This document shows, in pieces, positions 33,957 to 62,401 of a stretch of DNA of 64,000 nt. The notes beneath the pieces are model-generated. The model was not told the DNA's origin, did not search any database, and saw only the letters and a program-made list of their open reading frames with translations. A program made the translations under genes and the position numbers. This stretch comes from an uncultured Muribaculaceae bacterium. Lineage in GTDB: Bacteria > Bacteroidota > Bacteroidia > Bacteroidales > Muribaculaceae. The stretch covers positions 13,724 through 77,723 of the forward strand of contig CANQQE010000007.1 of assembly GCA_947625935.1 (NCBI GenBank), given 5' to 3'. The stretch's first letter is position 1. Each line of letters starts with the position of its first letter.

Positions 33957-34001
33957 AAAAACATTACCTCTTTTAATATCGGATTATCGTTCACACTGTC
34001 G

Positions 34002-36482: not shown

Positions 36483-36486
36483 AGTT

Positions 36487-36843: not shown

Positions 36844-36877
36844 ACACGTTTTTTTTCCTTTCACGAATTTTACAAAA

Positions 36878-36906
36878 ATTATAGCATATAAGATATTATT
36901 CGTCAA
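36878..36906 (-). promoter_or_regulatory. Promoter for the small-protein/sortase/RHH operon
   Basis: TTGACG - 17 nt - TATAAT. Confidence 0.6.
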
Positions 36907-36936
36907 TAAAATAATATAAAAATAATATTTTTGAAC

Positions 36937-36969
36937 ATAAAAACAGGACGGTCATAAAAACCGCCCTGT
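36937..36969 (-). terminator. Terminator after the adhesin gene
   Basis: Stem ACAGGACGG / CCGCCCTGT (one mismatch) plus a U-run. Confidence 0.65.
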
Positions 36970-36980
36970 CTGTAAAAACC

Positions 36981-39900: not shown

Positions 39901-41063
39901 TCGACGCTGTAGGCGGGGACGAACTGGTTCCTGTTATCTTCCAGACCACCGTCGTTGTCGCGGTCCGAGATCACATAACCCTTGATCGCCTCAGACGCAC
40001 TGGTACCATGCTCGTTGATATTATAAACCGCGAATTTCGCCCCGGAATACATATCAGCCGCGCCCTGGGACTGCGTCCCGTCGGACTCGTTATCACGTAA
40101 ATTAAACGAAAATGCCCCGCGCTCGATGCGGTCAGCGAGGGGATAGTTGCACCAACGGTTTTTGACGTTCCCGCTGGTAGTACTAGGTGTCAGAGTCTGA
40201 TTATACTTCGTCCCGGAAGCAGCATATTCCATCATCCCGCCGGATTCAGCCGTCGTCCAGAGTGTACAGGACATATCGTCGTTCCACTGGATGAACTGGC
40301 ACGCGTCGGCGTCATATTGAAATACGCAATACCATCTGTCGGTATTCGTCAAATCCGTAATATGAGTTTTCGTCGTATTATCGCCGATCATCGGCAAATA
40401 CATGCTGTCCGGCGCGTTGGAGCCGTAGCGGTGGGACGTCGTTCCGTCTTTTGCATTATCCGGATTCGTCGCATACTGCGTCACCAGGATGTAATCACCG
40501 TCAGAAACACTGCCGCAGTCGCCGCATTTTTCCAGCATGTCTTTCGTGATGACGAAATACCCGTCGCTGTTGACCGTGACAGTGATCGCCTTATTCGTCG
40601 ACGTATCCTTCTGCATCAGCAGGTCTTTGACTTTATTGTCCAGATCACTCTCTGTCGATTGAAAATGTTCTACAACAAGCTGCTGGCCCTCGAAGCTGCC
40701 CGCGCCCTGCGGGGTAAGCGCAAAATCGCGGTACTTGGGGCCGACCACGCCCCAGAACTGGTCCGTGAACTTTCCGGTAGCCAGCGCATACGACGTTTCG
40801 TCGTTGACCGCACCGTAAGGCTTTGCAGGATTTGTAGCGGTTTTATGCTCGCCGTTGTCGGCCTGGGCGCCGTACACATCGGCGTCGCACATCTGGATCA
40901 CAATACTGCCCGGCGACGTATATTTATCAGGCACAGGCGTAGAAAGCGTATCAGCTTTCTCAGCTGCCGCGCTTGCCGTCAAAGGTGTGATGATGCCGAA
41001 CATCATGGCACACACGAGCAGTCCGGACAATAAATGCTTAAAATGCTTTGTCCTTGAAATCAT
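36981..41063 (-). CDS. Sortase-anchored surface adhesin with SpaA/Cna-B-like domains and VaFE (Thr-Gln ester-bond type) repeats
   Basis: Signal peptide MISRTKHFKHLLSGLLVCAMMFGIITPLTASA. Three LP.G.Y.L...(P/G)DGY motifs. Two repeats carry KVVVFEEV / KVTAFETI and H.D...QT (SHCDPSDEKQT, KHENLGDVAQT). The C-terminal sorting signal is VPQTD followed by TM IWLICAVLALAGGCTWYII and RTRRK. Confidence 0.85.
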   Translation of the reverse strand: MISRTKHFKHLLSGLLVCAMMFGIITPLTASAAAEKADTLSTPVPDKYTSPGSIVIQMCDADVYGAQADNGEHKTATNPAKPYGAVNDETSYALATGKFTDQFWGVVGPKYRDFALTPQGAGSFEGQQLVVEHFQSTESDLDNKVKDLLMQKDTSTNKAITVTVNSDGYFVITKDMLEKCGDCGSVSDGDYILVTQYATNPDNAKDGTTSHRYGSNAPDSMYLPMIGDNTTKTHITDLTNTDRWYCVFQYDADACQFIQWNDDMSCTLWTTAESGGMMEYAASGTKYNQTLTPSTTSGNVKNRWCNYPLADRIERGAFSFNLRDNESDGTQSQGAADMYSGAKFAVYNINEHGTSASEAIKGYVISDRDNDGGLEDNRNQFVPAYSVEEILKAYNSYLKSGNTYEENCKDINGTGSNAVRVWEQDEFILGTTTRANRSVPIIPAMILDADNSGNVACSSDQALPAGNYLVLQVSAGEGYYIDENFRPIVSIGHTYFDTIYPTSGTTGESVIRSGSAVIAGNEYTVNATRTLQATFTSAPGTSEFGEGDEKLESIDAVPDRWDLLSRTYTCGDNGAIQKPTDESESSDYAAASNGCSVIMIPTNANTDLGSTDKLVTINFSGKGVDVQSGISTVWKNGSSKVTLSMSLSGGEALIYGKAPSDSDGTELLQHASGSFSHVQKKTEILSDGTEVTFAADAERMAPMNGYNRFTAYDAVIRGGNQVNLADRDDIGSPVLYETKKYIKNKNQKGTAYINEPQGDAKFIGSEFEIEIPDGYFVYDIYNQKQLDDDSITLRWTKDGMMVVDDEGNLSEFTGDYLPYGEYTLSQYKVGDGYSSPSGEDVTVDGVTVAQEDSMFFDVNVPADMVNTVNKTEENPAYPSILGIKNNNAAPTFLTNTILTGGELYTINCNEELLDPADTVTVSVYNISDSYVWTDAKGDGKYYDTLSEYDADGNKERYETMQSLYKTNIANNKNMDMKQLQSLLLAQNAAKCREIVIPIGQMSAGITADLPYGRYLVALTEIPDGYEIDGDLFVTDSIEEQDDMIEFTANLKLAEPGIYTTAVDANNGTHTLACDSQAAILDKVTYTGLRAKTTYTLRTTLADAKTGNVIAQVPMVETKITTNDLGQGRVDVNLPVNSSGFSGRKVVVFEEVYDEEGLELILSHCDPSDEKQTLEIPTLKTTLVGENGSDKTILAGTEITVIDILEYEGLVPGTTYKIESSVVAQASGAAIGTPVETEFTPDEASGRVSVSMVVDTLALNGQKVTAFETIKDNYSGATIIKHENLGDVAQTVTVSGFAPGEGEDDSLNSDDPNAQNGVPQTDTVQYYIWLICAVLALAGGCTWYIIRTRRKIADTMNDDQE

Positions 41064-50051: not shown

Positions 50052-51224
50052 ATGTTATTAAATGATACTGGAATCAAGGTAATCGAGAGTGATATGCAGA
50101 ACGACGGGCTGATCCCTTTCCTGCTCGGCGCACCCGGAATCGGAAAGTCCAGCGTGGTACGCGCGATCTGCGAGAAGAACAACTGGGGCTTCCATGAGCT
50201 TCTCTGCAATCAGATCACCATGCCTGCCGACCTGACCGGCGCAAGGACCATCTCTGTCAAAGATGACCAGGGCGTTGACCACTTCAGGCAAACGTTCTTC
50301 CCGCATGCCGTTATTCAGGATGCGATCGACGAGGCGGAAGCAAATCCCAGCAAGACCGTAGTTCTCTTCCTGGATGAGATCAACAGGACTTCATCTCATG
50401 TAACTTCTGCCCTGCTGACCTTTATCACCGCGAGAACGATCGGTACCGAGAAGCTGCCCATGAACATCAAGCTGGTCGCTGCCGGAAACGACGATGGCAA
50501 CGTCATTGCTCTGGACCAGGCATCCATCACCAGATTCATGCTCAGACGCTGCGAGCCTGACGCACAGGTATTCTTAGGTCTCGGCAAGATCCATCCCGTG
50601 ATCGAAGACCTGCTCAAGCAGCAGCCTGCACTGATCTACCAGATCCACAATGCTGTCGTGGACGAGAACTCTGAAGAGATTTACTCTGAGGAAGAGAACG
50701 ACTTCCAGCAGATCGCGACACCCAGAACCATCATGGGCCTGAACAAGGCGCTGCTGAACAATTCCAAGATGGTGATGCAGATGGACGAAGCTGCCCTGAA
50801 GGAATATGTATCCGGCTTTACCGGCGATACCCTCTTTACCGAGGCTGTCGTTACGGCGATCATGGCCAACAAGTACAAACTCGCTACACCTGTCGGCATC
50901 GAAGCGCCTGCGAAGCCCGCATGCCTTGACATGCTGATGAATGCAAGCTCTATCACCGATATTCAGTCCATGGTGGCCGGCATGTCCGATGAGGACCGCT
51001 CTGCGGCAATGCTGTACATGCTGTACGACAAGAACACGAACTATACCAACGTAATGCCTGAGGTACTCCACGCTTACGGGAAGAACATGCTTCTCGGCGA
51101 CGGCCAGAGCAAGCTCACCACGATCATCAACAGCGGCGAGTTCAACCATGATGCGTACGACGTGATCATGAACGCCGACACGCAGCTGACAAACGTGTTC
51201 AAAATGGTCTACGGCGGGGTCTAA
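50052..51224 (+). CDS. MoxR/AAA_5-type AAA+ ATPase
   Basis: Walker A FLLGAPGIGKSSVVRAI. Walker B VVLFLDEINRTSSHVTSALL. AGGAGG SD. Followed by a VWA partner gene. Confidence 0.75.
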   Translation: MLLNDTGIKVIESDMQNDGLIPFLLGAPGIGKSSVVRAICEKNNWGFHELLCNQITMPADLTGARTISVKDDQGVDHFRQTFFPHAVIQDAIDEAEANPSKTVVLFLDEINRTSSHVTSALLTFITARTIGTEKLPMNIKLVAAGNDDGNVIALDQASITRFMLRRCEPDAQVFLGLGKIHPVIEDLLKQQPALIYQIHNAVVDENSEEIYSEEENDFQQIATPRTIMGLNKALLNNSKMVMQMDEAALKEYVSGFTGDTLFTEAVVTAIMANKYKLATPVGIEAPAKPACLDMLMNASSITDIQSMVAGMSDEDRSAAMLYMLYDKNTNYTNVMPEVLHAYGKNMLLGDGQSKLTTIINSGEFNHDAYDVIMNADTQLTNVFKMVYGGV

Positions 51225-51261
51225 TGCCCTGCCGGACCATATTCTATAAGGAGGTGCCAAA

Positions 51262-52851
51262 ATGCCTACAATAACGACGATTGCAAGCAAGCTGTCCGCT
51301 GCAAATTCCCAGCTGCAGACGCTGCAGTTATATCCCCAGGATGCTTCCGTCGATATCAACACGATGCTGAACGACATCCTGGCAAAGATGTGGACGGACA
51401 TCACTTCCGGCCAGCTGACACAGGACGAGATGGATCTGTGCATCGGCACGTTCGCCAACGCTATCATCACAAACCTGGTCGACCGGCAGGCACAGACAGA
51501 TCTGGACCTGCTGTTCATGAACACCCTGGCGTGCTACAGCGCGAACAAATTCGACGCGGTATATTTAAGCCAGATCCTCAGAGCGAACAAGATGCCGGAA
51601 CCCAGTTCCAAGTGCATCTATGTGGCAGGCGACGTGACGGACGCTGCGAAGAATTACGATATCAACAGGGACGCCCAGTCAAAATCAGCGCTCCTTGCGA
51701 CGCTCGGCGCGTTTTACAACAATGCGTCGGCAATGTATGTGCTGATGGACGACGACTTGGAATTAGATAATTTCAAGAACCTGATCAATCCGATGCTTCA
51801 GGCAAAAGGGCTCGACCCGTTCCCTGCGGACTTTAATCTGCAGGCCAAGATCAGCGACGGCGTGATTTTACGTCCGGATTACAAACTGAGCGACCAATCC
51901 AACGATCCGGATTCCAACGCAAGGATCGTGATGAGCGTGCTCACGAACGCATATGCGAACCAGATCCTGCCCACCAGGACGATCGACGCGCTCATTCCGC
52001 AGACGGTCGTGTTCTTTAACGCCAGAAAGCTCGCCCGCGCCACCAGTACTGAGATCATGAACGCCAAGAGCGACATCGGCAAGCTGGCCGGGATCGACAA
52101 GGCGCGTATCCTGAGCTTCAGCCAGATGGCCAGCCTTTCCCAGGTCGCGAAGATCATAAACAAGATGGCCGTCATGAACAACCAGCTCAACAACATCCTG
52201 GCCAAATCAGCACTCTCCCAGGCCACCGGTAAATTCGTGATCCGGCATATCAACATGAAGCGCGTGCAGAAGAAATTGGAACGCGCCCTAAAAGCCATGA
52301 AAGATGTAGCGGTGTCCAAGAATCCCAGAGAACATGAGTACGACACGTACCAGAGGCCGAACCGCCGCGATCCTGAGAACTGGGACCTGCCCGGCACGGT
52401 GACGGACTTCGGCTACTGCCCCGACATTCATCTTTATGTTGATACGTCAGGCAGTATCAGCCAGAAAGATTACGAAGATTCCGTAGCAATGCTTGTGGAT
52501 ATTGCAAAAAAGTTCAACTGCGATATCTATTTCAATTCATTCACGACGGATATTTCGCAGGAAACGCTGGTCAAGTGCCGGGACAAGTCCAAACACCAGA
52601 TCCAGAAAGCTATCGAGAAGATTCCGAAACTGAGCGGCGGAACCACGATCGACCAGGTATGGCAGTATATCAACTGTTCCAAGAAAAACCGCAGACAGTT
52701 AAGCGTGCTGATCTCCGACTTTTACGTGGATGTTCCCAGGTATATCAAACACCCTGACCACCTGTTCTACATTCCTACGAAAGATACGAGCGTCAAATAC
52801 GCCGAAGAGTTTGCGAACAAGCTGCCGAATCCCTGGCGGGTATTATTTTAA
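51262..52851 (+). CDS. VWA-domain protein (MIDAS DxSGS), partner of the MoxR ATPase
   Basis: C-terminal IHLYVDTSGSISQKDYEDSV is a MIDAS motif. AAGGAGG SD. Terminator lies directly downstream. Confidence 0.7.
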   Translation: MPTITTIASKLSAANSQLQTLQLYPQDASVDINTMLNDILAKMWTDITSGQLTQDEMDLCIGTFANAIITNLVDRQAQTDLDLLFMNTLACYSANKFDAVYLSQILRANKMPEPSSKCIYVAGDVTDAAKNYDINRDAQSKSALLATLGAFYNNASAMYVLMDDDLELDNFKNLINPMLQAKGLDPFPADFNLQAKISDGVILRPDYKLSDQSNDPDSNARIVMSVLTNAYANQILPTRTIDALIPQTVVFFNARKLARATSTEIMNAKSDIGKLAGIDKARILSFSQMASLSQVAKIINKMAVMNNQLNNILAKSALSQATGKFVIRHINMKRVQKKLERALKAMKDVAVSKNPREHEYDTYQRPNRRDPENWDLPGTVTDFGYCPDIHLYVDTSGSISQKDYEDSVAMLVDIAKKFNCDIYFNSFTTDISQETLVKCRDKSKHQIQKAIEKIPKLSGGTTIDQVWQYINCSKKNRRQLSVLISDFYVDVPRYIKHPDHLFYIPTKDTSVKYAEEFANKLPNPWRVLF

Positions 52852-52857
52852 ACAGAA

Positions 52858-52888
52858 AGCGCGGTCTGATTTCAGACCGTGCTTTTTT
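52858..52888 (+). terminator. Terminator after the MoxR-VWA operon
   Basis: Stem GCGCGGTCTGA / TCAGACCGTGC followed by T6. Confidence 0.85.
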
Positions 52889-52905
52889 CATGAGAAGGTA
52901 TCTAT

Positions 52906-53088
52906 GTGAAATATGAAGTAGAATACGACATAAAAACAAAATACGTATGCGAAGTCGAAGCCGGCAGCGTTTCGGATGCCATGAAACAGGCCGATGAGAA
53001 GTTAAAAGCCGTTTCCACCGGCGACCTTGCCGTAAAAGACTGCCGCACGAAAGCTGTGAGGGACGAGAACGGCAAGCGCTATTATTAA
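52906..53088 (+). CDS. Small hypothetical protein (60 aa), first gene of the RT operon
   Basis: GTG start 6 nt after GAAGGT. Follows terminator 52858-52888. Its stop is 19 nt before the RT start. Confidence 0.45.
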   Translation: MKYEVEYDIKTKYVCEVEAGSVSDAMKQADEKLKAVSTGDLAVKDCRTKAVRDENGKRYY

Positions 53089-53107
53089 AAAAAGGAGCTG
53101 CGGATCT

Positions 53108-54391
53108 ATGGACAAATTATTGGAACAAGTTTTCTCAGACCAGAAGATCTGGGAACAGGCGCTGTCCGACGGCATCGAGAAAAAGATTAAAAAAGAAGTC
53201 CTGATCAGCTATTCTGACCCGGCATACCGGGAAGAGATCAAGCAGCAGATCGCGGAACATGCCTATCAGGTCGTCCCGCCACACGAGGCGCAAATCCCGA
53301 AAGACGACGGCACCATGAGGACTGTCTATGCCAACGAAGCAAAAGACCGCGTCCTGATGACCGTGATCAACAATACACTGTTCAAACTCTGTCCGGAAAT
53401 GATACACCCGGCCTGCAAATCCTATCAGACCGGCATCGGCTGCGGCATGGTGGCGCGAAATGTCGTAAAAGATCTCAAACGACTGCAGATCCACGGCGAT
53501 AAACTCGGCTACAAGATCGACCTGTCCAAATATTTTGACAGCGTGCCGATCGAATACATCGAGCAGGCGTTCAAAGATATCGAGGCCAAAGTCGGAAAAT
53601 CAGCCGTCCTGGACCTGTTATGGGACTACTATCACGATAACCGGCTGTACGACCTTGACAAACATATCTTTGAGAAATACACGAGCCTCAGACAAGGCTG
53701 TGCCGTAGCGGCGTTTCTGGCCGACGTGGTATTGTACGATATTGATGCCCAGATAAGTGCAATGCCCGCTGTTTCTTATTATAGATACAGCGACGACATC
53801 TTGATATTAGGAGAAGCAAAAGATGCGGACGAAGCCTTCGGCATTTTAAGCGCCATGCTGGAAGAACGGTCGTTAAAGCTGAACCCCAAAAAAGTCGAGC
53901 AGATCGACGCTGACCATTGGTTCACGTTTTTAGGATTTTCGATCCGGAACGACCAGATCTCGCTCTCCAAAAAACGGACGAAGAACCTTCAAAAAGTAAT
54001 TCAGGAGCTGACTCTTAACGCAAAAACAAAAACCGTAGAATCAGCTGCCAGAAAAGTCTACCGGTATCTGTACGGGCAGTCGAATGTTCCATACAGTTAC
54101 TGCGAAGGCATACTCTCAGTGATCAACAACAAGCACGACATCATGATGATAGATACTTACATCATGGACTGCATCAGGGCCTGCGCGACACAGAAAACAA
54201 AAATCGGCGGGCTCGGCTATAACAAAACAGGAAAAGACGGCGTGATCGTGCGCGGCCTCGGCCGGAACGTGAAACAGAACAAGATCAAACTGCCGGAGAT
54301 CCCGTATACGACCATGTCGTTCATGCAGTCGCTCTTTAATTCCGATAAAGACGCCTATCATACTTACGCGAAATCACTGATATTAACTTAA
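53108..54391 (+). CDS. Reverse transcriptase (stand-alone; retron/DRT/group-II-like palm, no maturase or endonuclease tail)
   Basis: RT motifs IPKDDGTMRTVY, GYKIDLSKYFDSV, LRQGCAVAAFLADVVL, YYRYSDDILILG, LKLNPKKVEQI and FTFLGFSI. AAGGAG SD. Confidence 0.85.
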   Translation: MDKLLEQVFSDQKIWEQALSDGIEKKIKKEVLISYSDPAYREEIKQQIAEHAYQVVPPHEAQIPKDDGTMRTVYANEAKDRVLMTVINNTLFKLCPEMIHPACKSYQTGIGCGMVARNVVKDLKRLQIHGDKLGYKIDLSKYFDSVPIEYIEQAFKDIEAKVGKSAVLDLLWDYYHDNRLYDLDKHIFEKYTSLRQGCAVAAFLADVVLYDIDAQISAMPAVSYYRYSDDILILGEAKDADEAFGILSAMLEERSLKLNPKKVEQIDADHWFTFLGFSIRNDQISLSKKRTKNLQKVIQELTLNAKTKTVESAARKVYRYLYGQSNVPYSYCEGILSVINNKHDIMMIDTYIMDCIRACATQKTKIGGLGYNKTGKDGVIVRGLGRNVKQNKIKLPEIPYTTMSFMQSLFNSDKDAYHTYAKSLILT

Positions 54392-54413
54392 ACCGAAAGG
54401 AGGCATATCCTGT

Positions 54414-55037
54414 ATGCGGTATTTGAATAAACAGCTCAACGGCGCGGATACCCGCAACAACTTCGTCAGATCTATGGATCTGTACGGCGGAACGAGCTTT
54501 GAACAGGCATTAGAAAATTACAACAAAGAGTGGTTTTCCAGCAAACGCAAGCAGTATCTGAACCAGGCATTCAAGCTGGTATTGGAGAAACAGCTGTTCT
54601 GGCCTGCCAGAGTGATCCCTGAGATGCTTGACGAGATCTATGTCAACGAATCAGACCGCTACGATGCGAAAAAGATGGCCCAGGATATCGACAACTTGAA
54701 ATCCAAGTACCAGATCTGGGCGTCGAAGCGCAAGAACCAGCCGGTAACGAGCAATGATATCTTAAAAGAGATCAAGAGTTTCGAGATGAAATACCGGTAC
54801 TCCTGCCCCGAATCCTTTAAGTTTTACTGGATGAACAACGGAGCATTTATTACGTTATCTTATGGAATAAAATTCGAGGATCTGGTCTTTCCCGGCATGG
54901 ACCAGGCGCAGAGCCTATCAAAGTTACAGGCGATGGGCCTCGAAGTACTGACCGACCATGACCACGACGTCGATGAAAGGCTGTTCAAGCTCTGCTATTT
55001 TCTTTACAGCAAAAAAGCGATTGCAGCCGAAGCATAA
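54414..55037 (+). CDS. Hypothetical protein co-transcribed with the RT
   Basis: 207 aa. AAGGAGG SD lies 22 nt after the RT stop. No motif recognised. Confidence 0.7.
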   Translation: MRYLNKQLNGADTRNNFVRSMDLYGGTSFEQALENYNKEWFSSKRKQYLNQAFKLVLEKQLFWPARVIPEMLDEIYVNESDRYDAKKMAQDIDNLKSKYQIWASKRKNQPVTSNDILKEIKSFEMKYRYSCPESFKFYWMNNGAFITLSYGIKFEDLVFPGMDQAQSLSKLQAMGLEVLTDHDHDVDERLFKLCYFLYSKKAIAAEA

Positions 55038-55099
55038 CAAAATTTTTTATGATAAGAACTGCGCCGAACACACGGCGAAACGGCAAGCGAGACGGCCGC

Positions 55100-55145
55100 G
55101 CTCAAAGCCCCGCGAGGATGTAAATGGCGCGCGGGGGCTTTGAGC
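55100..55145 (+). other. Strong GC-rich hairpin without a U-tract at the end of the RT operon and start of the ORF-free region
   Basis: GCTCAAAGCCCC (55100-55111) pairs with GGGGCTTTGAGC (55134-55145). After a one-nt bulge (G55133), 55112-55114 pairs with 55130-55132 for 3 more bp. Confidence 0.6.
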
Positions 55146-56786
55146 AGGTACAAAATGCGTAGAATATATAAATCCATGATTTAGCGAGCCTAACGAGGGG
55201 AGTGAGACCACCTCTCCGGCTGGAACCCGCTTTACGCATTTTCGTTACACTCAGAGCAATGACTATCGGAATGTGTCATGGCCGCAAGCTGCCAGAAAAT
55301 TTCAGCCCGGCACAGGGCTGACAGCGGAAATGAGCGCACTCCCCCAGATCCGTAGGACTGGGGGAGTTAAACGAAGAGTAAGAACAGGGTTTTTTTTTAA
55401 AACGGGGTTGACGAGGGGACTAAATGTCACTTGAGAAACCGCATATGAGCGGTCTTCAAGGATCCATGAGAAGACGCGTCGGCGAACCAGCTGGCACCGC
55501 GGTATCAAGGAGGTTCTCCGAGGCAGGGTCTCGAAGATCGTATGATCACGATCATTCCGGATGACCCGTAAGTCCAGAGAGGCTGGAATGCCACGACCGT
55601 GCAGCACAGTGCACTATAAGTGAAAGTCCACCCAGTCGTATGAGCCCGGTGAATTCAGGATCATTATCAAAACTCCCTCTGGGATTACAGCGTAATTAGC
55701 TGCCTGGAAGGCGAGCTGATCATGAGCTTGAACCTTGGACCAGGATGAATTCACTCGCAGGTCACCGTTCAGCTGGAGGAAAGATGATTTGGACGCCGTC
55801 AATCCTTGGCGCCAATGAATCATGATCACGTACGTAAATTCCAGAAGGCCTGAACCAGAGCTCCATGAACCATGGAATTTCGAGTCGGCAAAGCCACCGG
55901 CAATGCGAATCTGATCAAAACGTTCGCGATGAAACAGGCATGCCTGATGCAGGCGACACTGCCGTAGCTGTCGAATGAACTCGGATGGTGATGCTTCCGG
56001 TAGGACCCGTACTCACAATTGTACAACCAGGACAATCCGGATGAATTCCAGGGATGCCGTTTATGATCATGTTTGATATCAAAAGACAAAGCATTCGTAG
56101 AAGCCGTCGGCTGGATCCGCAATCATGAATCATGTGACTTATAGTCGACTAGGCTGCCCGCGATAGCGAACTTCAACGCACCAGTGTCAATCCGCCAGGC
56201 TTAATCATGATCGAAATGATGTCCAGAACAACTGGATAAACACATGCTGCGGGACACAGGTCCGAGCAGGTGATGGATCCTGGCTGGGATACCTGGCTTA
56301 GGCGCCTTTCTTCGAGCAACAAATGCTGCCATATGAAGAGCATCAGTTACGATCGGAATCAGACGACCTGAAGAAATGACTGATCAGTCAGCTGTTTCGG
56401 AACCTGATCCAATCAAATGCCTCAGGTGCGTGCGATCAAAGTTTCGAGACACGTGGAATAACTTCAGAAATGTTGGAATATTTGTGAGGACCATGCAATG
56501 GATCTGGGATTAACGCGCGCCAGCACTGTGAAATATTCCATGTGGCCTGTAACAATTCCAGACCGGTTGTTGAAGACGAGGATCATCCATCCGGATACGA
56601 TCAGTCGCTCCTCCCTGCGGTACCATGGAACTTCGCATCCACGGTCCGTCTCCAAGGACGTCCATGAAAACCGGCTGCCCAATGATGAGTCGAGTTCCGA
56701 ATGCTCAGCCTGACCCGTTTAAACTTTTCGCTATGAAACAACGATTATCTGAATGTGCTGTGTTCAGACCCGCTGTCACTTTTTTT
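55146..56786 (+). ncRNA. Candidate very large structured non-coding RNA, or an extremely long structured leader of the Clp-like/helicase operon
   Basis: The 1.77-kb gap has no ORF over 101 aa and no SD-led ORF. Its base composition is coding-like, unlike the AT-rich spacers elsewhere. It contains several exact helices and repeated sequence modules (see findings). It ends in T7 at 56780-56786. The strand is inferred from flanking gene polarity only. Confidence 0.4.
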
Positions 56787-56806: not shown

Positions 56807-58537
56807 ATGCCCTTAGATTTCAGACAAAATCAGAACAACGCTCCGGGAACGATGGGGCCGCCCCCTGGTGCCGTCACGCCCAATCAGGCCATGCAGGCAG
56901 TACAGAACTCTGCGACCGAAGAGCTGATGATCAACTACAACAAGAAATTCGCGAACGGCATGCCCGCCAAATACCGCGACAAAGAGATCTTCACGGTTAT
57001 CTCGCAGCTCATGATGAGCCAGAAATCCTGTTCTTTATTGGTCGGAGCGCCCGGTGTCGGCAAGACCAAGATCGTTGAGGAGATCGCCCGCCTGATCGCG
57101 GCGAAATCGCCTTACACCAATACGCTCAATGAATATACAGTCTACGAACTGCCGCTGACGAACCTGATGTCCGGCACAAGCTACCGGGGCGACTTGGAGC
57201 TGCGCGTGAAGGAGCTGGTCGAGTACTGCGAGAACAACAAAGTGATCCTGTTCATTGACGAGATCCATCAGCTGATCGACGGCCAGGCAAGCATGTCGGG
57301 CATCGCGCAGATGCTGAAGCCGGCTATGGCCAGAGGCTCGATCAAGATCATCGGCGCGACAACCACGCAGGAGTCCAAGAACTTATTGGACGATCCTGCT
57401 TTCAACCGCAGGTTCAACAAAGTCCAGGTATGCGAACTCTCTATTGAACAAACCGTGGACATCATCCAGACCGTGTATATTCCGAAAATGGGAACGTTTT
57501 ACGGCTGCTCCTTTGCAAATAACCTGGCAAAAATCGTCGTTGAGGCTGCTGAGCGGTCCAAAACAATCACCTGCCACCGCCCCGACAACGCGATCACAAT
57601 GCTTGACCAGATCTGCGCAAACACCGTCCTCACCAGGAACTATAACATAGCCACCTGCCAGGATCCGGCCGTCAAGCAGACGCTGCAGGCTACGCCGTGC
57701 GTCGTGAACGCCAACCATGTGGAACTGTTCAACCGTGAAGCCAATTTCACGCTGCCTGACAGCTTTGACAGCTTGAAATCCAAGCTGCTCTATCAGGACA
57801 AAGCGGTCGACGCACTCTATGAGAACTTAAAAGAGTTCGTCCAGATCAACGAACTGTTTCCTGAGAAAAAGCCGCTCGTGCTGAAAATTTTCGGCGCGGA
57901 CAAGACAGGCAAAACGACGCTGGCAAAGCTGGCGGCCGAGATGATCGACGAATCTCCGGTATATCTCGATCTGGCCGATTATTCCGACGCACCCAGCCTG
58001 AACCGTATCATCGGCTCTCCCATGGGCTATGTCGGATCGGATTCCAAGAAAGAAATGCCGTTCGACATTATCGAGTCTTCGCCGAGAAAAGTGATCATCT
58101 TAGACAATCTGGATTGCTGTCACGCCGTCATCCACGACTTCTTTGAGTCCGCGATCGACACGGCGCTGATCAAGTATGCCGACAACCGGATGATCGACAT
58201 CTCGAAGTGCATTATCATCATTACGAGCCATATGGAGAAAAAGACCGCCACGATCGGACTGGTCGTTCCTGAAGCAAAGACCGCGAAGAACGAGATCACT
58301 ATGGAAATACTCACGGACAACGAGCTCGTCGACGGCACAAAGACGATCATGCGCCAGCTTATTGCAGGCATGAAATCGTCCCATACAAAGTATTCCAGCC
58401 TTCCGGATGAATTGGACTTGACTGCGGAAGACGAAAAAGGCATTATAAATGTTGGTGATATGACGCGGACAGCGAAAAATGTGATCCTGCGCTATATCAA
58501 CCAGCCTGTAACAGCGGCCGCGGCAGAGAAAAAATAA
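56807..58537 (+). CDS. ClpA/ClpB-like double-AAA+ ATPase, second paralogue (D2 Walker B degenerate)
   Basis: D1 has LLVGAPGVGKTKIVEEIA, VILFIDEIHQL and IIGATTTQESKNLLDDPAFNRRF. D2 has KIFGADKTGKTTLAKL, but the Walker B position reads VIILDNLD. AGGAGG SD. Confidence 0.8.
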   Translation: MPLDFRQNQNNAPGTMGPPPGAVTPNQAMQAVQNSATEELMINYNKKFANGMPAKYRDKEIFTVISQLMMSQKSCSLLVGAPGVGKTKIVEEIARLIAAKSPYTNTLNEYTVYELPLTNLMSGTSYRGDLELRVKELVEYCENNKVILFIDEIHQLIDGQASMSGIAQMLKPAMARGSIKIIGATTTQESKNLLDDPAFNRRFNKVQVCELSIEQTVDIIQTVYIPKMGTFYGCSFANNLAKIVVEAAERSKTITCHRPDNAITMLDQICANTVLTRNYNIATCQDPAVKQTLQATPCVVNANHVELFNREANFTLPDSFDSLKSKLLYQDKAVDALYENLKEFVQINELFPEKKPLVLKIFGADKTGKTTLAKLAAEMIDESPVYLDLADYSDAPSLNRIIGSPMGYVGSDSKKEMPFDIIESSPRKVIILDNLDCCHAVIHDFFESAIDTALIKYADNRMIDISKCIIIITSHMEKKTATIGLVVPEAKTAKNEITMEILTDNELVDGTKTIMRQLIAGMKSSHTKYSSLPDELDLTAEDEKGIINVGDMTRTAKNVILRYINQPVTAAAAEKK

Positions 58538-58579: not shown

Positions 58580-60217
58580 ATGCCACTTATTTTGGAAGAC
58601 ACCGCTGCCGAAAAACAGCCAAACGGCGGCACAGTTCCTGCAGCGCTCCAGTACAGCCCGAAAGATTACAGTTCGATCTTAACAGGCAACGGAGTCAACC
58701 AGGGTCTTCTGCGCAGCATTGTAACGGCCGGAGGCTCTGCAAATGTTCCCAACCATATCATCCAGACCATTGATGACGAACGGTACAATGCAAAAAACCA
58801 TGCGTATCATGTTCATGACGACGTGCGCTCTTACACCGTGCTGCACCAGGACATCTCGCTCTGCGGCGGACTTAGCTCAAACGCTTCGGCCGTCCCCGCC
58901 CACCTGCTCAGAGACCATTTCATGACACTGGAGGACGCAAACGGCAATACCGTAACATACAGATCAAGGCTGTTCCTGAAAAAGATCTATGTCTATAAGG
59001 CAGTCAACAACTATGTACTGGGAAGCTATATCCTGATCGCCGCAGACGAGGCAAACCCGTTCAACTTTGTGATCGCCTCAGAAGATGCGCTCTTCACAAA
59101 AGGACAGAACGGCCTGATCACCAAGCTCTACAAAGAAGTGGAGGGCCAGGTCATCGCAAAATGCCGGAAGAACGGCTTTACGGTCAAGATCAATGACGCC
59201 GCGATGCTCGCCCAGGACGAAGAAAGCCGCACGATGTACGAGCTTATCATGTCCGAACTGGAAATCATCAAGACGCAGGGCCTGCTCAAGCAGACGCTGC
59301 AGAGTCTTTCCGCGAGCAGCTATGATGCGCTGAGCTACGCCAACGGCATCCTGAATCTGATCAACCTGCCGTTCGCGCTCTATCAGACCGATGTCATTGA
59401 TGTCGTAAACAGCAGATCGGCAGATGAAGCAGTAATGCTCAAGAACGCGAACATGTCGCTCTCTCTTGCTGACACGCTGAGCGCGATGCAAAACCGCAGC
59501 AGCATGGTGATCCCAGAGCTTACCGGCAAACATTACACCACGAACCAGATCCATCTGACGACCGAACAGATCGCTGCCATTGAGGCCGACTCGAAGATCA
59601 CGATCATAGCGGCCGGAGCGGGGACCGGAAAATCATCCAGCATCATCCATAGGCTTCACTTCATGGAGGAGAACGGCTGCAACATGCACCAGACCTATGT
59701 ACTGAGCTTTACAAAAGCAGCCGCGGGACATATCAAGAAGCTGTTCAAGGCGTGCAAATCCTGTACGATTGCAGATTTTACGCACAGCTTTGTGAACGTG
59801 ATATTAGACGACGGCTCCGGCACGCACGTGGACATCATCGCGCACTCTGACTTCGTTCAGAAATTAAGGATCCAGATCGACGACCTGGTGAACGCGAACA
59901 TTTTACAGAAGGCAACAGAAGACGCGCTGCTCAAGTTCCTGCAAGCATGTGCCAACATCGAAACCCAGCAGAACACACTGCTCAACATGCTGGACGCTTC
60001 TTTGAATCCCGAAGCAATGAACATCTTATCGGTGTTAAAGATGATGCGCGTTTCTTCTTTGGAACTGGATCCCATTATTTTCCACACGCAGCTTTCGGTG
60101 CTTACACCAAACATCGAGCACATCGTTATCGACGAAAGCCAGGACTCGAACCGGCTGGAATTCCTGACGATGCTCAAGATGGCAATGCTGCATGATATCA
60201 GTATCTACGTAGTGGGT
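58580..60217 (+). CDS. UvrD/PcrA-like superfamily-1 helicase, exon 1 (N-terminal unknown domain plus motifs Q, I, Ia, II)
   Basis: IIAAGAGTGKSSSI (motif I), VLSFTKAAAGHI (Ia) and HIVIDESQDSN (II). The reading frame runs into intron sequence after ...ISIYVVG and stops at 60224-60226. Confidence 0.8.
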
Positions 60218-61390
60218 AAGGCATAATTGCCCACTTTAAACCCTACTAACTGCGGGAAACCGACATGAAAAAATCATGTAAAACATACCTGCTACCGCGC
60301 TGTTTTAGAAATAGAACAGGCAGCACAACGGATAACGCCGTTGGGATGGTAAAAACGCAGGATCATGGCGGCAATCACGAAAACGCAGCCAGACAGCATA
60401 ACGTAAAGACGATGCTGTAAGGTTCATCGACTATCGAAAGCTATAAATCCATAAGAGTCAAGCGATTGACGGGGTTGAAAATAAGGGTAGGTGAAAACCT
60501 ACCGCGAAGCAAGTAGAGTAGCGCCCGGCGGCATGACCGGGTCAGTCTTCGGCTGAGATTAGGCCGGAATAAGCCTGTTAAAGCGAAATGACGGGCTTGC
60601 ATGTCTTAACGGATTTAATATTATTCGGTAAAATAAGACATACAAGATGATATAGTCAAAAATTTGGAGAACGGAGGGACCTCATGCAGACCTCAACACA
60701 GGTAAACAGAAAACATACAGTGAATGAATCTTATTTTAACAATATCGACACGCAGGAAAAGGCATACTGGCTCGGTTTTATCTGGGCCGACGGCAGCATC
60801 TCAAAAACGAGCAAACGGTCAAGCGGGCCAAACAGACTGCGAGTTACACAAAAAGATGCAGAATCTGACCATCTTAAAAAATTCAAAACCGCGATTGGTG
60901 CTGATAACGAAATTAAATTCGTTGACAAAGGGAACGGCCATATTATTGCGCAGCTTGACATCAACTCCCGCTTATTGTGTGAGTCGCTGCAGAAATTAGG
61001 ATATGGGCCAAAAAATGTCAGAGTTCATATTCCAAAGATCCGAAAAAACCTGCTGCACCACTTCATACGAGGTTATTTTGACGGCGACGGATGTTTATCG
61101 GTATACGAACAAAAAGTCAAAAAGTATATGATAAACAAACAGGAGTGGTCGCTGACAGGAAACAAAATCCTCATGCAGGAAATACAAGATCTGCTGACAG
61201 TTTCGGCACAAGTCACACCGACAGTTGCTTTAAAAGATTACAAAAAATCACCTGCGACCGCCTCGCTCCGCTACGGTAAAAACATCGATATTATACTGCT
61301 GTATGTTTATCTTTACAAAAATGCTGCTGTTTATCTACACACAAAGCACAATAAATTCATAGAATTTTTCTCCAGATCCGCGTCAAAAAG
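60218..61390 (+). mobile_element. Group I intron (1173 nt) interrupting the helicase gene between motifs II and III
   Basis: The 5' exon ends in U (60217). P1 forms between GUGGGU (60212-60217) and GCCCAC (60229-60234), with the U.G wobble at the splice site. The intron ends in G (61390). Joining the exons restores YVVG|DCAQTLYEFRDAD (motif III). The intron carries a LAGLIDADG ORF. Confidence 0.75.
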
Positions 61391-61442
61391 GATTGTGCCC
61401 AGACGCTCTATGAATTCAGGGATGCCGACCCGCGCATCCTGA
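60684..61442 (+). CDS. LAGLIDADG homing endonuclease (double-motif), intron-encoded
   Basis: Motifs YWLGFIWADGSI and IRGYFDGDGCLS. GGAGGG SD. The stop codon lies 52 nt past the predicted 3' splice site. Confidence 0.85.
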   Translation: MQTSTQVNRKHTVNESYFNNIDTQEKAYWLGFIWADGSISKTSKRSSGPNRLRVTQKDAESDHLKKFKTAIGADNEIKFVDKGNGHIIAQLDINSRLLCESLQKLGYGPKNVRVHIPKIRKNLLHHFIRGYFDGDGCLSVYEQKVKKYMINKQEWSLTGNKILMQEIQDLLTVSAQVTPTVALKDYKKSPATASLRYGKNIDIILLYVYLYKNAAVYLHTKHNKFIEFFSRSASKRIVPRRSMNSGMPTRAS

Positions 61443-62401
61443 ACAACTTGACGAAACTGTTCAACACGTTCGACCTTACGATCAACCATCGGTCCACCCA
61501 GATCATTCTGGACGTGGCCAACCTGATCAGCAACACGATGAACATGCACAAAACAACGCTCAGGTCCAACAACCTGACGCAGCCTATCACCAAAGCCGAG
61601 ATCGACAAGACCATTACGATCAACACTTATAATAAAGTGACCGATCCGGATACCCAGCTCATTCTGGACAACTACCTGGAAAAACATCTCGGCAACGCGA
61701 ACGGCGAAACGATCGCTGTCATCGCCCGCTCCGGAAACGATGTGGTGCATCTGTATGAGTATTTGGAAACTAAATACGGCTCCAAATACGAAATCCAGAA
61801 CATCACGTCCCAGCGGCGGAACGACATCACGATCCTGTCTGCCATCGGCAACAACCTGCAGACGCTTGTCAACAACACGGCGATCCAGAGCTGGAATGAT
61901 TTCGAGAGCATGATCACGACCGAAAACCTCAGGCTCAATGCAAACAGCCGCCGCAACCGTACCAACGGCACTATGCCCAGCGTCAATAAAGTAACGATGG
62001 AATGGCTGGCGGAGCAGCAGGCCGACGCGGCCAATATTATCGCGGAATTAAACGATCCGAACCAGCAGGCCGCCCGCGTACGCAAACTCCAGATGTCCCT
62101 GCTCGATACGCAGACCAAGAAGAACAATCTGCTGCAGAGAGTCATGGACGCGAAGAATGCAAAACTCAAAGAGAAAAAGGCAGACATCGTGGTCTGCACC
62201 GTGCATGGCGTCAAAGGCCTGGAATACGATCATGTGGCATGTTTCATCAACACCGAAGCTGAAAAATCTTATTCCGTAACGGATGAGAACAAACGTATCG
62301 CGTACGTAGCGCTCACCAGAGCAAAACAGACGGAATGCGTATTCTGCACCAGGGAAAAGCTCGTAAAGGATTTCGAGGCTTATTACCAGGCGCAGCCGTA
62401 A
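61391..62401 (+). CDS. UvrD/PcrA-like helicase, exon 2 (motifs III-VI)
   Basis: In frame with ORF 61448..62401. DCAQTLYEFRDAD (III), TINHRSTQIILDVAN (IV), VCTVHGVKGLEYDHV (V) and RIAYVALTRAKQ (VI). Terminator lies downstream. Confidence 0.8.
   Translation, partial: DCAQTLYEFRDADPRILNNLTKLFNTFDLTINHRSTQIILDVANLISNTMNMHKTTLRSNNLTQPITKAEIDKTITINTYNKVTDPDTQLILDNYLEKHLGNANGETIAVIARSGNDVVHLYEYLETKYGSKYEIQNITSQRRNDITILSAIGNNLQTLVNNTAIQSWNDFESMITTENLRLNANSRRNRTNGTMPSVNKVTMEWLAEQQADAANIIAELNDPNQQAARVRKLQMSLLDTQTKKNNLLQRVMDAKNAKLKEKKADIVVCTVHGVKGLEYDHVACFINTEAEKSYSVTDENKRIAYVALTRAKQTECVFCTREKLVKDFEAYYQAQP

What the first reader, a model, noticed from the sequence alone, without database searches (positions are those of the whole stretch)
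52906..55037. Orphan reverse-transcriptase operon immediately upstream of the giant RNA candidate
The 427-aa RT has all palm motifs, including YSDD. It has no maturase or endonuclease tail and is not embedded in an intron. It has its own SD and sits in a tight three-gene operon (60-aa ORF, RT, 207-aa ORF). The operon is bounded by terminator 52858-52888 and the U-less hairpin at 55100-55145, so read-through into the RNA region is plausible. Stand-alone RTs paired with a neighbouring ncRNA are the signature of retrons and DRT-type defence systems. Those ncRNAs are about 0.1-0.3 kb, and here the partner would be more than 1.6 kb. The locus also lies on the presumed early-entry side of a conjugative element, next to Clp-like, UvrD-like and nuclease genes. 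This combination could be a new RT-based defence, anti-defence or establishment system.
Basis: partly seen in the sequence, partly recalled or inferred. Interest (0 to 1): 0.8.

Follow-up and report, generated by a model that had tools for sequence, protein, structure and literature searches.

The report
UG27 reverse transcriptase with giant palindrome-rich RNA
This is a divergent member of the recently characterised UG27 reverse-transcriptase family, carried on a conjugative-type element, whose partner RNA has grown from a roughly 60-base template hairpin into a 1.3-kb fast-evolving stretch packed with restriction-site-like palindromes.

Summary
The ORFs, the YSDD motif, the SD, the upstream terminator-like hairpin and the 55100-55145 hairpin are all present. 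The RT is not an orphan. It matches the UG27 model (class 2 UG/Abi) over its full length (E=1.7e-153). UG27 was described in 2022 and shown in a Sept 2026 preprint to copy arrays of ~150-nt ncRNA units into short cDNA hairpins.

This locus is an atypical variant:
- The 207-aa ORF is a remote, shortened homolog of the UG27 large accessory protein.
- The canonical small accessory protein is absent.
- The 60-aa ORF is not conserved in any relative.
- The setting is a MobL-relaxase element, not a phage.

The 1.77-kb spacer holds two UG27-type units rather than a tandem array. Unit 1 is about 215 nt. Unit 2 is about 1.48 kb. Its stem-hexaloop, pseudoknot and two helices pair across 1.3-3.2 kb in all 10 related loci (169/190 Watson-Crick pairs versus 114±8 for permuted partners).

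The enclosed domain is non-coding and cannot be aligned between relatives. It holds 42 six-mer palindromes per kb, versus 15 per kb in flanking DNA and 14 per kb in canonical arrays.

That the RT copies this domain into cDNA is inferred, not shown. Verdict: new variant of a known kind.

The parts
52862..52889 (+). Terminator-like hairpin (CGGTCTGA-TT-TCAGACCG) followed by a T6 run, after the vWA gene. This is the upstream boundary of the module.
   Evidence: Sequence read. The hairpin was also picked up.
52906..53088 (+). 60-aa ORF (GTG start). It is strain-specific and not part of the conserved system.
   Evidence: ORF. No Pfam, PADLOC or PHROG hit. No tblastn homolog in any of 12 subclade loci, where this slot is empty or holds unrelated ORFs.
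53108..54391 (+). UG27-family reverse transcriptase (class 2 UG/Abi), 427 aa, with a YSDD active site.
   Evidence: PADLOC RT_UG27 E=1.7e-153, residues 2-424 against profile positions 3-420 of 420; the next best model is UG26 at 1.7e-40. Pfam RVT_1 E=5e-23. It is 44-50% identical to RTs of canonical UG27 loci.
54414..55037 (+). 207-aa all-helical accessory protein. It is a probable remote, shortened homolog of the C-terminal half of the canonical UG27 large accessory protein (bORF).
   Evidence: Conserved at 53-62% identity directly after the RT in all 12 subclade loci. hhalign against the canonical ~348-aa family gives probability 90.7% and E=1.5e-7 over columns 189-414 of 428. The AF2 model has pLDDT 89, is all-alpha, and has no fold match in PDB or BFVD. 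The family is rare.
55063..55076 (+). ncRNA unit 1: 5' stem-hexaloop (GCCG-AACACA-CGGC). The loop bases ACACA form pseudoknot 1 with 55272-55276.
   Evidence: Loop/motif pairs are 49/50 Watson-Crick in 10 loci, versus 33.4±2.9 for permuted partners.
55100..55145 (+).
   Evidence: I5. Relatives have hairpins with different sequences at the same position, judged by eye on the alignment.
55152..55242 (+). Unit 1: central hairpin closed by a 10-bp stem (AAAATGCGTA / TACGCATTTT). It is the presumed short template domain and contains the conserved GGGGAG.
   Evidence: I14. Alignment. MFE fold.
55239..55277 (+). Unit 1: 3' internal-loop region, with the conserved UUUUCGUUAC box (55239-55248) and the motif UAUCG-GA-AUGUGUC (55264-55277). 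The latter is a degenerate form of the canonical UANAG-NN-AUGUGCC.
55305..55318 (+). Unit 2: 5' stem-hexaloop (GCCC-GGCACA-GGGC). Loop bases 55310-55314 form pseudoknot 2 with 56754-56758.
   Evidence: helices 1 and 2; 48/50 Watson-Crick versus 38.4±2.2, p=1e-4.
55319..55335 (+). Unit 2: 5' strands of the long-range helices. P0 is 55319-55327 (TGACAGCGG). P2 is 55331-55335 (TGAGC).
   Evidence: helices 3-5, 83-98% paired, with compensatory changes at all 9 P0 pairs. (P0 78/90 Watson-Crick versus 46.6±5.4; P2 43/50 versus 29.2±3.0).
55338..55367 (+). Unit 2: conserved 10-bp hairpin (ACTCCCCCAG...CTGGGGGAGT), followed by UUAAACGAAG.
   Evidence: I16. helix 6: 90% paired, with compensatory changes at 6 pairs.
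55375..56713 (+). Unit 2: giant hypervariable, palindrome-dense central domain (analysed as 55401-56696). It is non-coding. It contains 21 perfect palindromes of 8-14 nt with 16 distinct 6-nt cores.
   Evidence: No conserved ORF. No open frame under any stop-codon reassignment. Not alignable between any two loci. Palindrome statistics.
56714..56759 (+). Unit 2: 3' internal-loop region. It comprises a possible inner closing strand CCCGUUUAAA (pairing with 55397-55406), the UUUUCGCUAU box (56725-56734) and the motif UAUCU-GA-AUGUGCU (56746-56759).
   Evidence: I22.. Duplex z-scores for the inner helix range from -0.6 to -3.7 over 10 loci, which is only suggestive.
56762..56786 (+). Unit 2: 3' strands of P2 (56762-56766) and P0 (56770-56778), then a U7 run (56780-56786) that is the likely 3' end of the RNA. 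The SD of the next gene follows.
   Evidence: (I2).

Best explanation
The locus is a divergent UG27-family (class 2 UG/Abi) reverse-transcriptase system carried on a large MobL-relaxase, conjugative-type element. Its conserved parts are the RT, one helical accessory protein and two UG27-type ncRNA units encoded directly downstream on the same strand. The accessory protein is a remote, shortened relative of the UG27 large accessory protein. Each unit has the family's scaffold: a 5' 4-bp stem with a hexaloop, a pseudoknot between that loop and a 3' AUGUGY motif, and closing helices. Unit 1 (about 215 nt) encloses a ~90-nt hairpin. Unit 2 (about 1.48 kb; 1.4-3.3 kb in relatives) encloses a 1.3-kb domain. 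That domain evolves too fast to align and is densely packed with short perfect palindromes of many different sequences. All of the above is shown by sequence analysis. The following is inferred by analogy with canonical UG27, where the RT starts in the 3' internal loop and copies the enclosed hairpin. Here the RT, with the 207-aa protein, would copy the enclosed domains into cDNA: a short hairpin from unit 1, and a long cDNA (or a set of cDNAs) rich in palindromic sites from unit 2. The biological role is unknown. Given the setting, a role in establishing the element or countering defence in a new host is the leading guess.
For: RT classification: (UG27 E=1.7e-153, full length). Published UG27 biology: PMC9226505 and bioRxiv 10.64898/2026.09.22.753630. 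Positive control: the canonical motif array appears every 150-180 nt downstream of the RT in IMG/VR relatives. In my own alignment of 22 canonical units, the stem-hexaloop is 87% paired and the pseudoknot 99% paired, both with compensatory changes. The subclade scaffold is 94.4% paired, versus 28-53% when partners are slid. 23 of 33 pairs show compensatory changes, and 0 of 500 shuffles reach the observed values. Own-versus-other-locus permutation gives 169/190 Watson-Crick pairs versus 114±8, p<1e-5. Recurrent G-U pairs, such as column pair 37-206 (GU in 6 of 10 loci), indicate a plus-strand RNA. RT, 207-aa ORF and spacer are adjacent in all 12 subclade loci, and the full two-ended scaffold is present in all 10 complete spacers. 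Accessory-protein homology. Palindrome density: 42 per kb versus 14-15 per kb in shuffles and flanks; enriched 4-fold for 8-mers and 10-fold for 12-mers; seen in all 10 loci; absent from the scaffold and from 95 canonical arrays. The spacer is the top outlier in the window and among 222 loci. Conjugative context.
Against: There are no expression or cDNA data for this locus. The published start motif (AUC-N7-UANAG) and stop motif (UUYA) are absent from the spacer, so the start site cannot be placed. The canonical small accessory protein, which is required for cDNA synthesis in two tested systems, has no detectable homolog here. The link between the 207-aa protein and the canonical bORF rests on one profile-profile hit; an exhaustive profile search retrieved only short proteins. 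The giant domain is not more stably folded than coding controls (z=-2.1, versus -1.9 to -5.3). One of the two conservative covariation measures, the count of further pair types, is not above the shuffles. Only 64 kb of an element of at least 138 kb was seen, and no T4SS ATPase or coupling protein was recognised, so 'conjugative' could mean mobilisable or phage-plasmid.
Confidence: 0.7

Rival explanations
1. The spacer is an ordinary UG27 array of 8-10 tandem ~150-nt units that have diverged too far for the published motifs, so there is no giant unit.
For: The preprint reports clades whose units escape its covariance models. 1.3 kb would fit about 8 units.
Against: Only two stem-hexaloops and two 3' AUGUGY motifs occur per spacer (three in L218, which has a duplicated unit 1), and never inside the middle. 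Hexaloop 2 and the strands next to it pair specifically with the far 3' end, not with the nearby motif 1. No ~150-nt periodicity, tandem repeat or internal repeat family was found. The middles share no alignable sequence.
Confidence: 0.1
2. The palindrome-dense middle is a DNA-level element that merely sits inside a tolerant part of the RNA gene and is not a reverse-transcription template. It could be a cluster of protein-binding, methylation or restriction sites, or a replication or transfer-related locus.
For: Perfect palindromes are a double-stranded DNA symmetry feature. The middle is not unusually structured as RNA. Pairing probability at the palindromic words is only slightly raised (0.69 versus 0.59).
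Against: In all 10 loci the middle is enclosed precisely by the covarying RNA scaffold, at the position where canonical units carry their template hairpin. There are no iterons or direct repeats. The palindromes have many different sequences (59 of 64 possible 6-nt cores), which does not fit a single binding protein. Sequence turnover is complete between relatives.
Confidence: 0.15
3. It is a retron or a DRT-type anti-phage defence system of the host or element.
For: It is a stand-alone RT with an adjacent structured ncRNA. Related class 2 UG RTs (DRT2, DRT9) are defence systems. Weaker PADLOC hits to Drt9 (1.4e-26) and to retron-type RT models were found.
Against: The best model is UG27, by more than 110 orders of magnitude. 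UG27 showed no defence-island enrichment and lies on mobile elements (PMC9226505). There is no msr/msd-like arrangement and no effector gene of a known defence type next to the RT.
Confidence: 0.04
4. It is a group II intron or DGR reverse transcriptase.
For: Generic RVT_1 domain.
Against: No intron RNA family was found at any threshold. There is no maturase or endonuclease domain. The RT matches the UG27 model over its full length.
Confidence: 0.01

Closest known systems
Canonical UG27 systems of gut phages and prophages (Mestre et al. 2022, PMC9226505; Li et al. 2026, bioRxiv 10.64898/2026.09.22.753630)
   Same: The RT belongs to the same family (UG27 HMM, full length). The ncRNA lies directly downstream on the same strand. 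The unit scaffold is the same: a 5' 4-bp stem with an RRYRCA-type hexaloop, a pseudoknot to a 3' UANAG-NN-AUGUGCC-type motif, and closing helices. The enclosed domain is sequence-hypervariable. There is a probable homolog of the large accessory protein.
   Different: There are two units instead of a tandem array of about 5-6 units. One unit is about 1.48 kb (1.4-3.3 kb in relatives) instead of 135-167 nt. The AUC-N7-UANAG and UUYA motifs are not present. The small accessory protein is undetectable. The large accessory protein is shortened to about 207 aa. The enclosed domain is palindrome-dense, which canonical arrays are not. The carrier is a MobL-relaxase element rather than a phage. RT identity is only 44-50%.
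DRT2 / DRT9 (UG2 / UG28, other class 2 UG RTs with ncRNA templates)
   Same: Each is a single RT with an adjacent structured ncRNA that serves as its own template. They belong to the same RT class.
   Different: These are host defence systems. According to the preprint's summary, they make long or concatemeric cDNA from a short template. The HMM matches are far weaker (Drt9 1.4e-26). Neither has a kb-scale unique template.
Retrons
   Same: An RT plus a cognate ncRNA produces multicopy single-stranded DNA. The RT has a YxDD active site and no endonuclease domain.
   Different: The RT clade is different. There are no msr/msd inverted repeats and no branching-G architecture. No retron effector is present. 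The scaffold is pseudoknotted.
Anti-defence genes of plasmid leading regions (Samuel et al. 2024, PMC11541004), such as DNA-mimic anti-restriction proteins
   Same: This is only a possible functional analogy. The locus lies on a conjugative-type element among helicase, nuclease, primase and ClpB-like genes, including a polyvalent-protein-associated domain (LPD24).
   Different: No homology exists. The proposed decoy would be nucleic acid made by an RT, not a protein mimic. The transfer polarity and the leading region of this element are unknown.

Membership tests
UG27 RT system | RT belongs to the UG27 clade of class 2 UG/Abi RTs | tested here: met
   PADLOC RT_UG27 E=1.7e-153, covering 2-424 of 427 residues and 3-420 of 420 profile positions. 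The runner-up is UG26 at 1.7e-40. No tree was built.
UG27 RT system | Large accessory protein (bORF, about 348 aa in the canonical loci I collected) | tested here: inconclusive
   hhalign of the 207-aa family against the canonical family gives probability 90.7% and E=1.5e-7, covering the C-terminal half only. The canonical HMM gives weak but consistent top hits (E=0.003-0.14). An exhaustive profile search retrieves no long members.
UG27 RT system | Small accessory protein (sORF, about 156 aa in canonical loci), required for cDNA synthesis in two tested systems | tested here: not met
   There is no HMM hit in any ORF of 35 aa or more in the window or in 11 subclade loci (best E about 1). No profile-profile match to any conserved neighbour was found. 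The window's 60-aa ORF is unrelated and not conserved.
UG27 RT system | ncRNA unit scaffold: basal hairpin, pseudoknot and conserved 3' internal-loop motif | tested here: met
   The stem-hexaloop and loop:AUGUGY pseudoknot are supported in canonical units and in both units here. The 3' motif is degenerate in the window (UAUCG/UAUCU) but is UAUAG or UAAAG in relatives. The published covariance models were not available to run.
UG27 RT system | Tandem array of 135-167-nt units | tested here: not met
   There are two units, of about 215 nt and about 1.48 kb. No periodicity or tandem repeats were found.
UG27 RT system | Start motif AUC-N7-UANAG and stop motif UUYA flanking the template hairpin | tested here: not met
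   The spacer has no exact matches, and the 7 subclade spacers examined at that point have at most chance matches. Canonical loci have 4-6 regularly spaced matches each.
UG27 RT system | RT-dependent short (50-100 nt) cDNA hairpins | not testable with these tools
   This needs expression and strand-specific DNA sequencing.
UG27 RT system | Located in a phage or prophage | tested here: not met
   A MobL relaxase, a type IA topoisomerase, a sortase with adhesin and a ParM-like protein are present. No phage structural or packaging hit was found in 64 kb. This is typical context rather than a strict criterion.
Retron | Retron-clade RT with msr/msd and an effector | tested here: not met
   The best RT model is UG27. 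No retron ncRNA family was found.
Group II intron | RT embedded in intron RNA domains, with a maturase (X) domain | tested here: not met
   Rfam finds nothing. Pfam finds RVT_1 only.

The most novel reading that the evidence does not exclude
The giant unit may be a template for RT-made 'restriction-site decoy' DNA. After entry of the conjugative-type element, the RT would mass-produce cDNA carrying dozens of different 6-14-nt palindromes; 59 of the 64 possible 6-nt palindromic cores are used across relatives. These self-complementary sites could form duplexes that titrate or distract Type II restriction enzymes, or other proteins that recognise palindromes, while the element is established. 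The arms race would drive the complete sequence turnover seen between relatives. If true, this would also suggest a function for the diverse cDNA hairpins of canonical UG27 systems, namely short double-stranded decoys.
Probability: 0.12. Interest if true: 0.9.

Novelty: new variant of a known kind. Interest (0 to 1): 0.72.

Why it matters
The biochemical output of UG27 systems is known, but according to the 2026 preprint their biological role is not. This variant changes three things at once. The carrier is a conjugative-type element instead of a phage. The protein set is RT plus one shortened accessory protein. The template is a kb-scale domain in place of a ~60-nt hairpin. Its template also has a simple, measurable and unexplained property: about three-fold enrichment of diverse perfect palindromes, rising to ten-fold for 12-mers. 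That gives a concrete hypothesis that can be tested with standard restriction enzymes and conjugation assays. It also shows that the UG27 RNA scaffold tolerates inserts of more than 3 kb. That could matter for using such RTs to make long, programmable single-stranded DNA in cells.

Tried and rejected
1. An exact or spacing-relaxed search for the published motif in the spacer found none.
2. MFE and local-hairpin enumeration to find repeated hairpin modules showed no recurring module.
3. The spacing of enriched words and of TCCGGA sites, which hinted at ~500-nt sub-units, showed no extended consensus or consistent period.
4. A hidden protein gene was ruled out. No ORF is conserved, and no frame is open under TGA, TAG or TAA reassignment.
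5. An unusually stable RNA fold of the middle was not supported (z about -2, like the coding controls).
6. The palindromes are not tips of long hairpins; their extension scores are barely above the shuffles.
7. A second giant-unit clade (L082, L088, L109, L117) was rejected. Those loci have coding ORFs downstream of the RT and ordinary ~170-nt units further on. The high counts in L072, L074 and L107 come from an (AT)n repeat.
8. A covariance model of canonical units from a MAFFT alignment was abandoned. Only the pseudoknot columns align, and the window lacks the sequence motifs that would dominate such a model.
9. A column-based test of unit 1 on alignment A5 was abandoned because of misalignment, and was replaced by an anchored permutation test.
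10. Nucleotide searches of phage and plasmid collections found no match. The IMG/VR, JGI metagenome and GTDB scans did not contain the subclade.
11. A fold search with the 207-aa protein found no match.
12. The identical contigs L046-L049 carry no microdiversity.
Full report
OBSERVATION. The gaps between them are 19 and 22 nt. The 427-aa protein contains YRYSDDILIL. Pfam finds only RVT_1, at residues 63-279. Rfam finds nothing in the window at gathering thresholds, and nothing at E<=1 between 55000 and 61600. The RT is therefore not inside a known intron. A hairpin with a T6 run follows the upstream vWA gene at 52862-52889, and AAGGAG precedes the RT start codon. The 55100-55145 hairpin has perfect 12-nt arms. 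The next gene, a ClpB-like AAA+ protein, starts at 56807, which leaves 1769 nt with no credible ORF.

WHAT THE RT IS. Against PADLOC models the RT matches RT_UG27 over its whole length (E=1.7e-153). The next model, UG26, scores 1.7e-40. UG27 is a class 2 UG/Abi RT described by Mestre et al. 2022 (PMC9226505). It occurs mostly in human-gut phages, shows no defence-island enrichment, has two associated proteins of unknown function, and has a putative ncRNA next to the RT. A preprint of 24 Sept 2026 (bioRxiv 10.64898/2026.09.22.753630) shows that UG27 loci encode an RT, a small and a large accessory protein, and an array of about 150-nt ncRNA units. In that work the RT starts at AUC within AUCNNNNNNNUANAG and stops after UUYA, and it produces 50-100-nt cDNA hairpins. 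Production requires YSDD and, in the two systems tested, both accessory proteins. The biological role of the cDNAs is stated to be unknown.

POSITIVE CONTROL AND CANONICAL ARCHITECTURE. RT relatives fetched from IMG/VR and from an Alistipes MAG are 44-47% identical to the window's RT. They carry the published motif every 150-180 nt directly downstream of the RT. In 169 such loci the conserved layout is RT (about 422 aa), an array of about 0.9 kb, a ~156-aa ORF and then a ~348-aa ORF. I take the two ORFs to be the preprint's small and large accessory proteins. In 22 non-redundant canonical units, a 5' 4-bp stem with a hexaloop is 87% paired, with compensatory changes at all four pairs. The loop pairs with the 3' AUGUGCC motif at 99%, with compensatory changes at four of five pairs.

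THIS LOCUS BELONGS TO A DISTINCT SUBCLADE. The published motif does not occur in the window's spacer. A search of 5.8 billion proteins found the identical RT on eight contigs, the longest about 138 kb, and a subclade at 56-62% identity. I fetched twelve subclade loci. All share the order MoxR-AAA, vWA, RT, ~205-aa ORF, gene-free spacer, ClpB-like AAA, UvrD-like helicase. The ten complete spacers are 1.7-3.8 kb long, with GC from 0.40 to 0.59. The subclade is absent from IMG/VR, from the JGI metagenome set and from GTDB representative genomes. The four other contigs of this element that I fetched are 100% identical to the window over their overlap.

PROTEINS. The 60-aa ORF has no homolog in any subclade locus. 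The slot between vWA and RT is either empty or holds unrelated ORFs of 132-205 aa. It is therefore not a conserved component. The 207-aa ORF is conserved at 53-62% identity in all twelve loci. BLAST finds no counterpart in canonical loci. However, the HMM of the canonical 348-aa family ranks the subclade's post-RT ORFs on top (E=0.003-0.14). Profile-profile comparison gives 90.7% probability (E=1.5e-7) over the C-terminal half of the canonical protein. The canonical 156-aa family has no detectable relative in the window, in the subclade loci or among the conserved neighbour genes. The 207-aa family is rare. It has 12 clusters at 90% identity, all 202-221 aa, and only 6 representatives among 1.84 billion, none longer than 214 aa. 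Its AlphaFold2 model is confident (pLDDT 89, pTM 0.85) and all-helical. It has no structural match in PDB or BFVD.

THE RNA REGION: TWO UNITS, ONE GIANT. Aligning the subclade spacers shows conserved blocks only at the two ends. A UANAG-NN-AUGUGC-like motif occurs twice per spacer in the loci where it could be matched. One copy lies about 200-250 nt in, and the other about 50 nt before the end. The window's versions are UAUCG-GA-AUGUGUC at 55264-55277 and UAUCU-GA-AUGUGCU at 56746-56759. Each spacer also has two very specific 4-bp stems carrying an RRYRCA-type hexaloop. In the window these are at 55063-55076 and 55305-55318.

Hexaloop 1 is complementary to motif 1 in all ten loci examined, across seven different loop sequences. 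The score is 49/50 Watson-Crick pairs, versus 33.4±2.9 when partners are permuted among loci (p<1e-5). Hexaloop 2 is complementary to the far motif 2 (48/50 versus 38.4±2.2, p=1e-4) and pairs less well with the nearby motif 1 (mean 3.4 of 5).

The strand just 3' of hexaloop 2 (P0, 55319-55327) pairs with the strand just 3' of motif 2 (56770-56778). A second short helix (P2, 55331-55335 with 56762-56766) lies inside it. On a concatenated 5'+3' alignment of ten loci, the whole model is 94.4% paired, versus 28-53% when the partners are slid. 23 of 33 pairs have compensatory changes (shuffle mean 13.1±2.0, reached in 0 of 500 shuffles). All nine P0 pairs covary. One conservative measure, the number of further pair types, does not exceed the shuffles. 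Permuting partners among loci gives P0 78/90 Watson-Crick versus 46.6±5.4, P2 43/50 versus 29.2±3.0, and all long-range pairs 169/190 versus 114±8. Recurrent G-U pairs argue for an RNA on the plus strand.

Unit 1 therefore spans about 55063-55277 and encloses a ~90-nt hairpin (55152-55242). Unit 2 spans about 55305-56786, and its scaffold closes around about 1.3 kb (1.2-3.0 kb in relatives). A U-run follows the last helix in most loci. An inner closing helix (55397-55406 with 56714-56723) is only suggestive. L218, with a 3.8-kb spacer, has a duplicated unit 1.

THE GIANT DOMAIN. It is non-coding. No ORF is conserved, and no frame is open under any single stop-codon reassignment. No two loci can be aligned across it. 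Its predicted folding energy is unremarkable (z=-2.1, versus -1.9 to -5.3 for coding controls). Its striking property is palindrome density. The ten middles (16.6 kb in total) hold 696 six-mer palindromes, against 375 expected from their own fourth-order Markov model. That is 42.0 per kb, versus 15.2 per kb in 166 kb of flanking DNA. Enrichment grows with length: 16.5 versus about 4 per kb for 8 nt or longer, 6.4 versus 1.1 for 10 nt or longer, and 2.65 versus about 0.3 for 12 nt or longer. It holds in every locus (34-49 per kb). It is absent from the scaffold plus unit 1 (18.8 per kb) and from 95 canonical UG27 arrays (14.0 per kb).

The palindromes are discrete and are not the tips of long hairpins. 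They are also very diverse. 273 palindromes of 8 nt or more use 59 of the 64 possible 6-nt cores. TGATCA, TCATGA and TCCGGA recur in 9-10 of the 10 loci. In the window, 55401-56696 contains 21 of them, including cores such as GAATTC, GTCGAC, GATATC, GCATGC, CAGCTG, CCGCGG, GGCGCC, CAATTG, TGTACA, GACGTC and GTGCAC. In 1-kb sliding windows the spacer reaches 18 palindromes of 8 nt or more, versus 4.0±2.2 elsewhere in the window. The top windows among all 222 fetched loci are all subclade spacers. Apparent exceptions were an (AT)n repeat, or AT-rich coding DNA in loci that have ordinary arrays further downstream. The preprint does not mention palindromes, restriction, plasmids or conjugation in connection with UG27.

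CONTEXT. The window encodes the following:
- a MobL relaxase (8414-10762, minus strand; Pfam E=6e-37), 31-34% identical over 76-92% of its length to MobL of large actinobacterial plasmids;
- a type IA topoisomerase;
- a glycosyltransferase;
- a sortase;
- a T-Q-ester adhesin;
- an actin-like partition protein;
- a 1556-aa protein with a lysozyme domain;
- two ClpB-like ATPases.

Downstream of the RNA lie a UvrD-like helicase, an LPD24-domain protein, a DUF3799 protein and a D5-type primase. No phage structural or packaging family was detected. The RT has no homolog in 72,556 PLSDB plasmids. In the phage collection it has only two hits, at 44-48% identity, one of them a Bacteroides phage. However, no T4SS ATPase or coupling protein was recognised, and only 64 kb of at least 138 kb was seen. 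Where the leading region lies is unknown.

MECHANISM. Shown: the family assignment, the conserved gene pair, the two-unit RNA architecture with long-range closure, and the hypervariable palindrome-dense domain. Inferred from the canonical system: the RT, together with the 207-aa protein, initiates in the 3' internal loop near the conserved UUUUCRYUAY box and copies the enclosed domain. That would yield a short hairpin cDNA from unit 1 and a long, palindrome-rich cDNA (or several cDNAs) from unit 2. Not inferable: the start site, the processivity, how synthesis works without the small accessory protein, and the function.

The most novel reading compatible with the data is an RT-made nucleic-acid decoy for enzymes that recognise palindromes, such as restriction enzymes, acting during establishment of the element. 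It fits the diversity of the palindromes, their length bias, the rapid turnover and the carrier element. It has no direct support. I give it about 0.12.

VERDICT. The locus is a new variant of a known kind (UG27): it meets the RT and RNA-scaffold criteria, but it fails the criteria for array form, start/stop motifs, the small accessory protein and phage context.

Noticed in passing
window 58580-62401: The UvrD-like helicase is a single 885-893-aa ORF in relatives, but in the window it is split. The N-part aligns to residues 1-559 and the C-part to 579-893 of the intact relative. About 1.2 kb is inserted next to the DExx motif and carries a 252-aa ORF with a faint LAGLIDADG_3 match (60684-61442). 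This looks like an intron or homing-endonuclease insertion, but Rfam finds no known intron family there.
   Followed up: partly
window 50052-52851 and 56807-58537: A MoxR-type AAA+ / vWA gene pair upstream and a ClpB-like double-AAA+ gene downstream flank the RT module in every subclade locus. Because the synteny never breaks, I could not tell whether they are functionally linked to the RT system.
   Followed up: partly
L218:7909-11677: This relative has a 3.8-kb spacer with three stem-hexaloops. Two have the same GGTACA loop and a repeated UAUAGAUUAUGUACU motif, which suggests that unit 1 is duplicated. This would be an example of unit gain within the subclade.
   Followed up: partly
L055:7947-8260 and L219:7982-8300: In these two relatives no stem-hexaloop lies 5' of the first motif. 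Instead, an ATAT-GGCACG-ATAT stem-loop lies just 3' of it and is complementary to only 4 nt of the motif. This may be a rearranged or degenerate unit 1.
   Followed up: no
window 35619-41063: A sortase gene lies next to a 1360-aa surface protein with T-Q ester-bond and SpaA-like domains. This points to a Gram-positive host and a conjugation or adhesion function for the element.
   Followed up: no
window 5265-7088 (minus strand) and 56807-58537 (plus strand): One element carries two separate ClpB-like double-AAA+ proteins. The first also matches a phage 'ATP-dependent protease' PHROG (E=4e-103).
   Followed up: no
window 33501-35000: This region has the second-highest palindrome count in the window, with 11 palindromes of 8 nt or more per kb against a mean of 4. 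It lies in and around the ORFs at 33015-33956 and 34027-35268. It is well below the spacer's 18 and may be chance.
   Followed up: no
L117:10372-10900 and L088:10499-11000: Some UG27 loci with RTs about 43% identical place several ORFs between the RT and an ordinary ~170-nt unit array. The 3' motifs there read UAAAG-AA-AUGUGUC, but the exact AUC-N7 motif is missing. This illustrates the variation in gene order and motifs within the family.
   Followed up: partly
window 55390-55398: A T9 run lies 22 nt after the conserved unit-2 hairpin and just before the possible inner closing strand. It is not conserved in relatives and its significance is unknown.
   Followed up: no
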